Source: Atractiella rhizophila
Taxonomy: Eukaryota
NCBI GenBank assembly: GCA_021432655.1
Contig: MU271187.1
Coordinates: 206,695 to 226,694, forward strand
Direction of reading: 5' to 3'
Length of the DNA: 20,000 nucleotides
Shown piece by piece: positions 7,399 to 11,370 of this stretch; position 1 is the stretch's first letter, and every line of letters begins with the position of its first letter. The notes beneath the pieces are model-generated. The model worked only from the letters and a program-made list of their open reading frames with translations. It was not told where the DNA came from and made no database searches. The translations under genes and the position numbers were made by a program.

Positions 7399-8217
7399 TC
7401 ATAACATCACAACAAGAACGTCACACCAGTTTGCCACGGAAATGGCGGCAACAGCGGTCTCCTTTCCGGCAGTGTTGGACCTCCGTTGACAAGCTGTACA
7501 TGGCGTGAGGTTGAAGAGCCTGATCATCACTGAACGCTGAGCGCTGTGCTGTGATGCACTTTGTACACGCAAGTTCCCCGATGTTTCACTTGAGCGAGAA
7601 GGTGAGAAAGATGACAAGGGAGATTGTTAAGTCTACTGCCGCGGTTTGATATCATTAACTCTTACTGGCTGATGGAGTCTTGCATGTCGTGCGTCAGCAT
7701 AGAACATAGACACACTATGTGCGTGGATATTGAACTGGTTATGCACATTGGTTATTGTTTCATTTCTAACACCGATGGATCGAGACTATGGACGTTGTCG
7801 TTCAATCAACTCGTTGGACGGAGTGAATTGAAGGTGCATAGAGATGTTTGTTATTCTATTGTGACGTTGTAAACAAGGACTCATGCTATGCACCTCATAC
7901 CCGTTCAGGGTTACCACAGAGAATGGGATGAAAGAGGTCGAACGCAACGTTGGCCGTAGCGGTTCATTCATCAATTCACAGCTAGCAAGGTAGTGTGCAC
8001 CGTATTACGACCTCGCTGTTACCAGGAAGAAAGGAGACCGCTCAAGTCTGCGAGTGGAGCTGCAACCGCACTCGCGGCGTCCTCTCTGTCGAGCAGGTAC
8101 AACACCTTGAGAGTTTAGCAAGGTGGAGTACGGTGTCTGCGGCTTGTGATCCCCTCGAGACGTCCTCTACCACGTTTTGCGGTGAAGTTAGAGTTTCTGT
8201 CCATCCACATCTGAAAG

Positions 8218-8224
8218 TATAAAA
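8218..8224 (+). promoter_or_regulatory. TATA box of secreted gene B
   Basis: TATAAAA ~55 nt upstream of ATG 8279. Confidence 0.55.
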
Positions 8225-8278
8225 GACGGCAGCTTTCTTTCTATGTTCCACTACGATCTAAGCATAGGAAGAAAGGAT

Positions 8279-8702
8279 ATGTTATACAGATCTATCCTGC
8301 TCATTGCGCTCAGCCTTCTGGCTGTAGCTGCTCCAACTGTAAGTGATTTCCTTCAATAGGGCAAGACCACAACTCAATCGGCTGTGCAGCCCGAAAGCGA
8401 GCCCTCACTTGAGGAACTATTGAAAAGGTCACCACAGCTGAATCATGATGTGCTCCGCTCTGTACGACTTCTTCTACTTCTCATTGGCATTGACCTCACT
8501 CTTGTGGTAGTGCGAGCAAGCATGCAGCAGTAACCCTCCACCTGTGGGCTACAATTATGTCTCAGTAAGCAGTCTCAAGAGTAGACAGCTAGGTCTTACG
8601 GATTGAGATAGTGTTTCTTTGAGTGTGCGCAAAAAGGAGGTATTTGATTCATAGATCTTTGATGCGCGCTTGAATGCATCATATTAAGGCTACCATTTGT
8701 AA
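8279..8702 (+). CDS. Small secreted Cys-rich prepropeptide B (71 aa). Exons 8279-8338, 8390-8449, 8511-8564, 8612-8639, 8689-8702
   Basis: MLYRSILLIALSLLAVAAPT|PESEPSLEELLKRSPQLNHD|CEQACSSNPPPVGYNYVS|CFFECAQKG|GYHL*. Four GT-AG introns of 51, 61, 47 and 49 nt keep frame. Signal peptide, acidic pro-region, KR site and TATA box are all present. Confidence 0.82.
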
Positions 8703-9412
8703 CCAGGTATATCAAAGTGAGCCTGAAATCTGCAGCACTCGGCTAGGCCGTATAACGACGTCCCAGATTAGTTCACCTGGAGATTTAGAATGGCATCAAA
8801 GACACCAGAAGGAAGGACGAGGAAACGGGCTCTCTACAAGAATTTATCACTGCATGCCTGTTCGATCCTTTTTTTCCCCACAAAACTTCAGCACTAAGAA
8901 GTAATACCCATTACTGTACGCTGAATGCTGTATGCATAGGATAGAGCCCTGCAGCCATTAGGAGGCAGAGCAGAAAGCAATTGTGCCCCCAATTTACTGA
9001 CAAAAGAGCTTGCAAAGATCAGAGACTAACCAGCACCGTGACACCTATCCTTGGAATTGCCTCCATCTCGAGCAATTGGAGCAATCGTTAGCGCACTACA
9101 AAATCTGTGGCATTTACAGTTTCGATGTGATTGCGATATGTCCTGTCGTGATGGTCATCGGTAGGGTTAGGGTCCCAGCTTGTTTCACCTCCATCCGCCC
9201 CAAGACAGCGCCTACATTTTCCTACTTCAGTCTTTCTTTTCTCATCCAATCCTTTCTCGGCTTTCGACCTCGACTCTCTGAGGCTTTCACTCCCTTTCGC
9301 CGAAAAAATCGAGAAAAAAACGTCGACTTTGGTCGATCCGCGATATAGCCCGCAATTTTCACACCAATCCGCTAACCAACGACACGATCCCCTATTTTCT
9401 CTTTCTGCAACG

Positions 9413-11370
9413 ATGGAGCACAACAGACATCTGAAGTCTCATCAGAGGATCAAGCGTCAAAGGTTGGGAGTCCCTACTACGGGTGATCCAACGACGACCC
9501 CAGCCGAAACGACTAAAGGTCCCTCGACCACGCCGACGCCGAAAGCTGCTAATCCCAAGACGACGCCCGCCACGACGGAGAGTGATCCTACGACGAAGAA
9601 GGCGGCGACGAAGACGACGGATAGTAACACACAGACGAGCTCGAGCAAGACCAAAAAGGGTAACTCTAGCTCTAGCACCACTGGTTCGGTCACAGGTACC
9701 ACGGGATTATCTGGAACTGTTACTGGTACGAGTTCCACTTCTACCGGTACGGCTATCGGGGCTGGCTCGAACAATGGGACGAGCAGCGGAGGCGGAATTT
9801 CCACTGGAGCTATCGTCGGTATTATCGCCGTGGTTGCAGTGGTCGCCGTGGCTGGATTATTCTTCTTCGTCCGAAAGAAGAAGAGAGCGAATGTCGCTGC
9901 TGCCAATGGCGGACCCATTGGCTCGAATAAGAGGGCCAGCGCGATGGGTGCAGAGCCTTTGAGGAGCGACGAGAATTTGTTCAGTAGCGTGGAGGAGAAG
10001 AATGGCGGTGGTGGATGGGGAGGAAATGGAGGTGGGTATGGCGCTGTGGGCGCCACGAGAGGAATGGGCGGTGGAATGGGCGGGAATGGACCTTCGAACG
10101 AAGGAAGGGTCTGGGGAGAAGAAAAGATCAACGTTGTGCCCTCGCCGTCTGCGACTAACTTTAATGTCGGGGCTGCTCCTCCGCCAATGTCTTCGTATCC
10201 TCCGTCTTATCCCCCTTCGAATGGTTACCAGTCTCCTCCTCCTCAATTCGACGACTATAACCAACCGCCGATGTCAGCCCAACCGCTTATGGCCCCGGCT
10301 CCCTTGCCCATTCCAGCCAATGTTGCCCCTCTTCGACAATACACTCCTTCACCGACCTTGTCTCAAAACACGAATATGATGTCTCCTCCGGCCTCTACTG
10401 CGCACTTCTCCACCGCCTCTTCTCAGGTGCCTCTCTTACCTCAGGGAGGCACGCCAATGACACCCGGTTCCGACTTTTTTGGGCCAAACAGAAGTGACAC
10501 CGCGACGCCTAAGAGTAACGTTCCCGTCGCTCTCCTTGCCGGTGCTGGCTCTCCTCCTCCCGGTCATCTTCCAAATCCCCTCATGGCCAGCCCTCCTCAA
10601 CCCGCTCAACCGCTCGTGGCTCCTCCAGCTCCGGTTCCGGCTCCTGCTCCTTCTCCTGAGACTGCGGAGAACCCGTTCCCAGATTCGCCTGAGCAAGGGA
10701 AGGTCTTCAGTGTGGTTAGGACCTTTGAGCCTAATATGAATGATGAGCTTGTTATTTACGTGCGTCTTTGCTCCTTCCCTAGATAGGAAAGTGTCATTGA
10801 TTGTGAATGAAACAGCCCGGAGACAAAGTCCAGATTCTCATGAACTACGACGATGGCTGGGTTCTCGGTGTCAATCTCTCCATCAACCCACCTCAACGAG
10901 GAGTGTTCCCCCGCGATTGCGTCGAAGAAGCGGATCCGTCCTCTCCCCTTCCTGGCGCCACCAACGGTAACAACGAGAACAAGGGTAACACGCTGATGGG
11001 AAACAACCACTTCACAATCATGGAGGAAGATGAGGACGAGCCTTCTGAGCTCCCTTACGGTCCTCCTTCTCCCAAGAACAAAGTCGCGGACAAAGCGCCG
11101 TTCCTTCCCCCCATCGACTTTGTCACTTCGTCCGCTAGCCCACCAACGATCGCGGTCGAGGCTCCAGCGGAACATAATTCGAACCACATTGCTGGCCCTG
11201 GTGTTGGCGGAGTGACCCCTAGTCAGAGCTCCGGAAACGTGAGCACTGCGAGTGGAAAGAACGTGAGGAGGTCTAGCTCGCTCATCGCTAGCAGAGATGC
11301 GGAGTTGTTTGTTGCTCTTGGTGAGGCTTTGGATGATGGGAAGAAGAGGCAACAAACGAACATGATTTGA
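9413..11370 (+). CDS. Single-pass membrane protein with Ser/Thr-rich ectodomain, Pro-rich tail and SH3 domain (Fus1-like architecture), ~633 aa. Exons 9413-10759, 10816-11370
   Basis: TM segment GAIVGIIAVVAVVAVAGLFFFV followed by RKKKR. SH3 VVRTFEPNMNDELVIY|PGDKVQILMNYDDGWVLG...GVFPRDCV is joined across a 56-nt GT-AG intron. Start codon not certain. Confidence 0.85.

What the first reader, a model, noticed from the sequence alone, without database searches (positions are those of the whole stretch)
8279..8702. Hidden 71-aa prepropeptide giving an alpha-hairpinin-like 38-mer after a Kex2 site
Seen: signal peptide, acidic pro-piece PESEPSLEELLKR, then SPQLNHDCEQACSSNPPPVGYNYVSCFFECAQKGGYHL = C-x3-C-x13-C-x3-C. 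It is absent from the ORF track because all five exons are 60 nt or less. Known: KR is the Kex2 site, and CX3C-Xn-CX3C is the signature of plant alpha-hairpinin defence peptides (helix-loop-helix, C1-C4/C2-C3 disulfides). Inference: a fungal hairpin peptide acting as toxin, protease inhibitor or effector.
Basis: partly seen in the sequence, partly recalled or inferred. Interest (0 to 1): 0.75.

Follow-up and report, generated by a model that had tools for sequence, protein, structure and literature searches.

The report
Hidden fungal disulfide-hairpin peptide gene
A root-dwelling fungus has a tiny, overlooked, spliced gene for a secreted 40-residue peptide that is probably stapled into a two-helix hairpin like plant defence peptides, and it appears to be the smallest member of a small gene family so far seen only in this fungus.

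Summary
One RNA-derived contig (1 of 4 runs laid) shows intron 2 starting at 8462, not 8450, confirms intron 3, and reads through the supposed intron 4. Corrected model: four exons, 73 aa: signal peptide, acidic pro-piece ending L-x-K-R, then a 40-aa acidic peptide with C-x3-C-x13-C-x3-C. A pattern built from this gene found three more genes in the same genome (Atractiella rhizophila) with the same plan: 20-codon signal exon, L-x-K-R exon, phase-0 introns before each CX3C. They have 8 Cys and C-terminal cargo; the window gene lacks both outer Cys pairs. A paralogue's core models as helix-loop-helix (pLDDT 74) whose best, but non-significant, structural matches are plant alpha-hairpinins. No sequence relatives were found outside this fungus. 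It is not a plant hairpinin by descent, lacks the cationic cluster of antifungal members and the loop Arg of trypsin inhibitors. Best reading: a convergent, Kex2-released disulfide hairpin that binds a protein target of a neighbouring organism. Fold of the window peptide itself, processing and function are untested.

The parts
8218..8224 (+). TATA box, 61 nt before the ATG
   Evidence: sequence; TATA-like boxes also at -61, -64, -97 in the three paralogues
8279..8338 (+). exon 1, 20 codons, signal peptide ending A-P-T
   Evidence: hydrophobic core (no SignalP available); 10, 8 and 7 of 20 residues identical to paralogue exon 1, also 20 codons; not covered by RNA
8339..8389 (+). intron 1, 51 nt, phase 0 (predicted)
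   Evidence: GTAAGT..CAG; in-frame stop if retained; same position in paralogues
8390..8461 (+). exon 2, 72 nt: acidic pro-piece, L-x-K-R (KR at 8423-8428), first 11 residues of the mature peptide
   Evidence: RNA contig covers 8417-8461 and joins to 8511
8462..8510 (+). intron 2, 49 nt, phase 0 (reader placed the donor at 8450)
   Evidence: joint 8461>8511, GT..AG, run X2
8511..8564 (+). exon 3, 54 nt: first CX3C and the Pro/Tyr-rich loop
   Evidence: RNA contig, 0 differences
8565..8611 (+). intron 3, 47 nt, phase 0
   Evidence: joint 8564>8612, GT..AG, run X2
8612..8647 (+). exon 4 coding part: second CX3C, short tail, stop TGA 8645-8647
   Evidence: RNA contig runs unbroken 8612-8806; translation
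8648..8806 (+).
   Evidence: same RNA contig; 13 differences in 159 nt against 1 in 135 coding nt

Best explanation
A single-copy gene of the root endophyte Atractiella rhizophila for a 73-aa prepropeptide. It enters the secretory pathway, two disulfides form, Kex2 cuts after L-x-K-R (residue 33) and a 40-aa peptide is secreted (possibly trimmed by one X-Pro dipeptide). The peptide is a helix-loop-helix held by C1-C4 and C2-C3, presenting a rigid Pro/Tyr-rich loop. It is the minimal, most diverged member of a small family in this genome with a shared signal/pro cassette and Cys frame but unrelated residues between the Cys. The fold is convergent with plant alpha-hairpinins. Being acidic, it most likely works by binding a specific extracellular protein (enzyme, receptor or channel) of a neighbouring microbe or of the root, not by lysing membranes. 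Shown: introns 2 and 3, stop position, motif, paralogue architecture. Inferred: intron 1, secretion, Kex2 cut, fold and pairing (about 0.7), family kinship (about 0.75), mode of action (about 0.45).
For: Spliced contig with two GT..AG joints. L-x-K-R in all four genes, matching the Kex2 preference in PMC8528282. Cys-exon pattern made from the window gene alone gave 32 matches (control 7); of 30 cut out, 5 have an upstream signal+KR model (window, L009, L010, L015, L034) against 3 of 2,950 background sites. Exon 1 is 60 nt in all four, all introns phase 0, exon-1 similarity beyond shuffles (p at most 0.0003). L009 model equals NCBI protein P0002. Paralogues have Cys spacing 2-2-3-11-3-3-1; the window gene lacks the two outer Cys on both sides together, as expected for nested pairs. 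AlphaFold2 of the paralogue core: helices 7-14 and 19-29, mean pLDDT 74, the two CX3C on opposite helices. Top rows of both fold searches include hairpinins: Tk-hefu, vicilin leaders, nigellin (6 of 26 rows); BWI-2c Z 4.4, rmsd 2.3, 36 aligned and luffin P1 Z 4.2, rmsd 2.5, 38 aligned. Helix propensity good on both sides of the loop, poor in it (0.47, 1.6, 0.48 kcal/mol). Coding part more conserved than 3' UTR in strain X2 (1/135 vs 13/159, p 0.002).
Against: RNA support is one contig in 1 of 4 runs laid; its run is only guessed to be RNA and intron 1 is uncovered. The window peptide itself was not folded. Fold matches are not significant (Foldseek best E 1.9; VIA best Z 4.4, tied with unrelated helical pairs) and the full paralogue model is poor (pLDDT 47). 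Outside the Cys, exons 3 and 4 share almost nothing with the paralogues (0 of 7 and 0 of 9 identities at the exon starts), post-signal alignments are weak (shuffle p 0.03, 0.37, 0.25), and the positions of introns 2 and 3 before Cys were imposed by my pattern. A shifted alignment (window exon 2 end against paralogue exon 3, 5 of 12 with L009) competes. The coding/UTR contrast may be a haplotype boundary: in X24 the non-coding 7900-8548 is nearly invariant too. No evidence of any target or activity.
Confidence: 0.5

Rival explanations
1. Antimicrobial peptide in the manner of antifungal plant hairpinins, acting on the wall or membrane of competing microbes.
For: Same 3-13-3 spacing as antifungal EcAMP1; aromatic residues on loop and second helix; helices moderately amphipathic (moments 0.59, 0.44); root niche is crowded (PMC6450171).
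Against: The basic mini-cluster named as needed for antifungal hairpinins (PMC7191063) is absent: 2 basic, 3 acidic, pI 5.4.
Confidence: 0.15
2. Self-signal: a secreted ligand for the fungus's own receptor (hyphal contact, self/non-self recognition, development).
For: Kex2-released peptides with X-Pro starts act as fungal signals, and such precursors occur in Basidiomycota (PMC6339444); the mature peptide starts with an X-Pro dipeptide; one paralogue lies beside a DPP-IV/Ste13-like gene; acidic helical disulfide pheromones exist in ciliates (recalled).
Against: No repeats, unlike alpha-type pheromone precursors; no CAAX end (recalled feature of basidiomycete mating pheromones); no receptor gene found among 104 of the window's frames scanned.
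Confidence: 0.15
3. A truncated, decaying copy of the 8-Cys family, still transcribed but without a function.
For: Lost four Cys and all C-terminal cargo; very diverged; not in the protein collection.
Against: Intact TATA, signal, Kex2 site and splice sites; an even, symmetric Cys set; no remnant of the paralogue tails after the stop; 1 difference in 135 coding bases in another strain.
Confidence: 0.1
4. The peptide is real but unrelated to the C24/C87 genes; they only share a signal/pro cassette common to small secreted proteins here, and the twin CX3C arose separately.
For: No similarity between Cys outside exon ends; DNA alignments to the paralogues are confined to the promoter/exon 1 part and weak (7, 1, 33 of 300 shuffles reach the score).
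Against: Patterns for the signal exon or the KR exon turned up no further gene with this cassette among the loci examined; 3 of 3 intron positions and phases agree.
Confidence: 0.1

Closest known systems
Plant alpha-hairpinins (EcAMP1, VhTI, BWI-2c, luffin P1, Tk-AMP-X2, nigellin-1.1, vicilin-buried peptides)
   Same: 4C motif; 3-13-3 spacing as in EcAMP1 and VhTI; released from a precursor; predicted helix-loop-helix (paralogue only).
   Different: Fungal, intron-split gene; one module after a Kex2 pro-piece rather than a vicilin leader or multi-module cassette; no sequence similarity; acidic; Pro where VhTI has its reactive Arg; paralogues have an 8-Cys frame that fits neither the 4C nor the 6C definition.
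Kex2-processed pro-domain (K2PP) fungal effectors (SnTox3, ToxA, SIX1/4/6; PMC8528282)
   Same: Signal, disordered pro-piece, L-x-x-R/KR site in the first half, Cys-rich mature part.
   Different: Much smaller mature product; no sequence or Pfam link; host is an endophyte; processing and any effect on plants untested.
Cysteine-stabilised alpha/alpha channel blockers of scorpions and cone snails (kappa-hefutoxin, OmTx, vil14a, flf14; PMC7191063)
   Same: Same Cys motif and expected pairing; conserved signal/pro with variable inter-Cys residues is the pattern of such families (recalled).
   Different: No sequence link; longer loop and N-terminal extension; dyad geometry not tested.
KEX2-processed repeat proteins (KEPs; Rep1 of Ustilago maydis; PMC6339444, PMC4617103)
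   Same: Kex2 release of peptides; the C87 paralogue has a second KR before a 19-aa aromatic peptide.
   Different: The window protein has no repeats and one site.
Cin1 of Venturia inaequalis (PMC4617103)
   Same: Fungal secreted protein with a helix-loop-helix core.
   Different: 523-aa repeat protein, three-helix bundles of 52-64 aa; no similarity tested or found.

Membership tests
plant alpha-hairpinin | 4C motif CX3C-X4-20-CX3C with no CC and no stray Cys (PMC11591084 Table 1) | tested here: met
   Cys at 12, 16, 30, 34 of the 40-mer, no others (criteria)
plant alpha-hairpinin | helix-loop-helix with C1-C4, C2-C3 disulfides | tested here: inconclusive
   window peptide not folded; paralogue core models as two helices; fold matches weak; disulfides not measured
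plant alpha-hairpinin | plant peptide from a vicilin-like or multi-module precursor | tested here: not met
   fungal gene, single module after a Kex2 pro-piece; no plant hits for the paralogue or exon 3
antifungal alpha-hairpinins | cluster of basic residues | tested here: not met
   one Arg (10) and one Lys (37), net about -1.5 at pH 7
trypsin-inhibitor alpha-hairpinins | reactive Arg between the two CX3C motifs | tested here: not met
   no Arg or Lys among the 13 loop residues; Pro at C2+4 (feature)
K2PP secreted proteins | signal peptide, then polar pro-piece ending KR/RR or LxxR in the first half | tested here: met
   hydropathy test only, no SignalP; L-x-K-R ends at residue 33 of 73
K2PP secreted proteins | pro-piece absent from the secreted protein; cut by Kex2 | not testable with these tools
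   needs proteomics or in vitro Kex2
KEPs | internal repeats separated by Kex2 sites | tested here: not met
   one KR, no repeat in the 73-aa protein (definition)
alpha/alpha channel-blocker peptides | Lys plus aromatic dyad in the right geometry, channel block | not tested
   no model of the window peptide; it has one Lys and four aromatic residues

The most novel reading that the evidence does not exclude
A fungal lineage has independently built a modular peptide family on the alpha-hairpinin (disulfide alpha/alpha) scaffold so far described from plants, scorpions and cone snails: a fixed signal/pro cassette, each CX3C helix on its own phase-0 exon, a 4- or 8-Cys nested frame, hypervariable faces and exchangeable C-terminal cargo, used by a root endophyte against proteins of its host or competitors. 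Most members are missed or cut short by gene callers, so similar families may be hidden in other intron-rich basidiomycetes.
Probability: 0.35. Interest if true: 0.72.

Novelty: new variant of a known kind. Interest (0 to 1): 0.52.

Why it matters
It adds an apparently unannotated secreted peptide and a small family to a widespread root endophyte, and gives a testable case of the disulfide helical-hairpin scaffold in fungi, for which my searches of the paper library found no report (open-licence papers only). It also shows how micro-exon peptide genes escape annotation: of four distinct genes, one has a full model, one a model without signal and pro exons, and two were not found in the protein collection.

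Tried and rejected
Intron-2-retained reading with a hydrophobic tail: contradicted by the joint. DNA and exon-sized protein searches of the own genome found only the gene itself. Metagenome scan with a 21-nt exon-3 stretch gave 1 locus, a chance 22-nt match. Protein collection: no candidate for the exon-2 frame or the C87 exon 4. HMMER over 1.84 billion representatives with P0002: itself, P0001 and three repeat proteins judged spurious. Pfam (best E 0.028, below cut-off), PDB sequences and ESM Atlas gave nothing usable; absence there shows no novelty. Further family patterns: 14 matches, 6 known loci, 8 others seen only as printed matches, 34 matches (control 35), 30 examined, no new member, 19 matches (control 20), 5 known, 5 examined without a member, 9 not examined, 18 matches, seen only as printed; C1206 match not examined. 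No biosynthetic cluster: 104 window frames scanned show UBA/SEP, helicase, LRR, NmrA only. The CX2CX2CX3C of the paralogues resembles a ferredoxin motif, and twin CX3C the small Tim proteins (both recalled); rejected because these are signal-peptide proteins without Pfam hits. The bacterial promoter scan is not meaningful here. My first script mis-set exon 3 by one base, corrected.

Full report
Setting. The window is C8:206695-226694 of G000 (51.5 Mb, 1,998 contigs). Proteins of paralogous loci in G000 are 100% identical to NCBI entries labelled Atractiella rhizophila, a Pucciniomycotina basidiomycete described as a root endophyte (PMC6450171, passages). The gene lies in a single-copy interval between a helicase gene and a membrane-protein gene; 104 window frames scanned against Pfam show housekeeping domains only.

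Observation. Of 24 listed runs I laid 4. One contig of run X2 lies on 8417-8461, 8511-8564 and 8612-8806 with two GT..AG joints. This moves the intron-2 donor to 8462, confirms intron 3 and removes intron 4. The corrected gene has coding exons of 60, 72, 54 and 36 nt, introns of 51, 49 and 47 nt, all phase 0, and encodes 73 aa. After L-x-K-R (residue 33) comes a 40-mer with Cys at 12, 16, 30 and 34, pI 5.4, net charge about -1.5. Intron 1 has no RNA cover. X1 and X4 do not cover the gene. In X2 the coding part differs at 1 of 135 bases and the 3' UTR at 13 of 159 (Fisher p 0.002), which may reflect selection or just a haplotype boundary, since upstream non-coding DNA is nearly invariant in X24. 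The protein was not found in the 5.8-billion collection by its exon-2 frame, so it seems unannotated.

Family. A pattern made from this gene alone (acceptor AG plus CX3C, an intron-sized gap, acceptor AG plus CX3C) gave 32 matches against 7 for the reversed control; many are simple repeats. Of 30 loci cut out, 5 have an upstream signal exon and KR exon: the window gene, two tandem genes on C24, one on C87 and a C1131 copy; background 3 of 2,950 AG sites. C1131 is 98% identical to C24 over 3.3 kb, probably an allele or recent duplicate, so there are four distinct genes. All have a TATA-like box, a 60-nt first exon ending x-P-x, L-x-K-R in exon 2, and three phase-0 introns; exon 1 of the window gene shares 10, 8 and 7 of 20 residues with them (shuffle p at most 0.0003). 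The model of L009 equals NCBI protein P0002, an outside confirmation of the four-exon plan; P0001 is an N-terminally cut model of L010. The paralogues have eight core Cys (spacing 2-2-3-11-3-3-1) and C-terminal cargo: one or two C-x10-C modules on C24, a second KR and a 19-aa aromatic peptide on C87. The window gene lacks the two outer Cys on each side and all cargo. Against kinship: between the Cys there is almost no similarity, whole-gene DNA similarity is limited to the 5' part, two intron positions were imposed by the pattern, and a shifted alignment with L009 scores 5 of 12. Four more patterns found no further member among the loci examined (unexamined matches are listed under Tried and rejected). 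Outside this fungus nothing convincing was found.

Fold. Only a paralogue could be modelled. Full P0002 is poor (pLDDT 47); its 41-residue core gives helices 7-14 and 19-29 at mean pLDDT 74, with the two CX3C on opposite helices. Foldseek found nothing at E 0.001; 6 of its 26 weak rows are hairpinin-type peptides. In the wide search BWI-2c (Z 4.4, rmsd 2.3, 36 aligned) and luffin P1 (Z 4.2, rmsd 2.5, 38 aligned) lead but tie with unrelated helix pairs. For the window peptide, helix propensity is good on either side of a Pro-rich loop, and the joint loss of both outer Cys pairs fits nested disulfides. The hairpin is therefore a fair inference (about 0.7), not a result.

Mechanism. Secretion, oxidation, Kex2 cut after L-x-K-R (preference described in PMC8528282, passages), possible trimming of the first X-Pro dipeptide (Ste13 specificity in PMC6339444, passages), release of a rigid acidic hairpin showing a Pro/Tyr loop. 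A conserved signal/pro cassette and Cys frame with unrelated residues in between is the pattern of peptide families that bind changing targets (recalled, as in conotoxins). The basic cluster needed by antifungal hairpinins and the loop Arg of trypsin inhibitors (PMC7191063, first of 8 parts and passages) are missing. I therefore favour binding to a protein of a neighbouring organism over membrane action; self-signalling and decay remain open.

Comparison. The peptide meets the 4C motif criteria of PMC11591084 (passages) and has the 3-13-3 spacing of EcAMP1 and VhTI, but the same review notes the motif also in scorpion and cone-snail peptides and says it cannot classify by itself. It works, probably, like a hairpinin in fold; it is not a member of the plant family. 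It fits the K2PP layout in sequence; it is not a KEP. Cin1 (PMC4617103, passages) is a fungal helix-loop-helix precedent of a different build. Searches for hairpinin with fungal terms and for this species with small secreted proteins showed no report of such a family (listings only, open-licence library; supplements such as KEP tables were not read and could list a paralogue).

Verdict. Real gene, corrected model, new small family; convergent scaffold likely; function untested. New variant of a known kind, interest 0.52.

Noticed in passing
L015/L039 (G000:C87, about 45,540-46,025, minus strand): Paralogue with a second Kex2-type site releasing a 19-aa Trp/Phe/Tyr-rich peptide; not found in the protein collection.
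   Followed up: partly
L039:503-760 +: C-terminal end of a DPP-IV/Ste13-like dipeptidyl peptidase gene (PF00326, E 2.7e-10) lies tail to tail with the C87 paralogue; 1 of 3 family loci, may be chance.
   Followed up: partly
L009, L010 (G000:C24, about 55,300-56,850, minus strand): Tandem paralogues carry one and two copies of a roughly 27-aa C-x10-C module with no hits; NCBI model P0001 lacks the signal and pro exons; C1131 holds a 98% identical copy of the pair.
   Followed up: partly
window 8656-8793: Island of about 9% allelic divergence just after the stop codon, three alleles among the window, X24 and X2, while 7900-8548 is almost invariant.
   Followed up: no
window 9413-11370 +: Neighbour gene for a Ser/Thr-rich single-pass membrane protein with a Pro-rich tail; RNA joint 10759>10816 (56-nt intron) in X24 and X1, same intron in X2; an SH3-like stretch spans the joint (recalled pattern; no Pfam hit on the separate frames).
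   Followed up: no
window 8243-8278 +: An in-frame ATG 36 nt upstream of 8279, only 25 nt after the TATA box start; 8279 is preferred because it matches the paralogues' first exon.
   Followed up: no
L083 (G000:C34:81400-81980, minus strand): TATA box and a signal-peptide-like start of another possible small secreted protein, no Cys frame seen.
   Followed up: no
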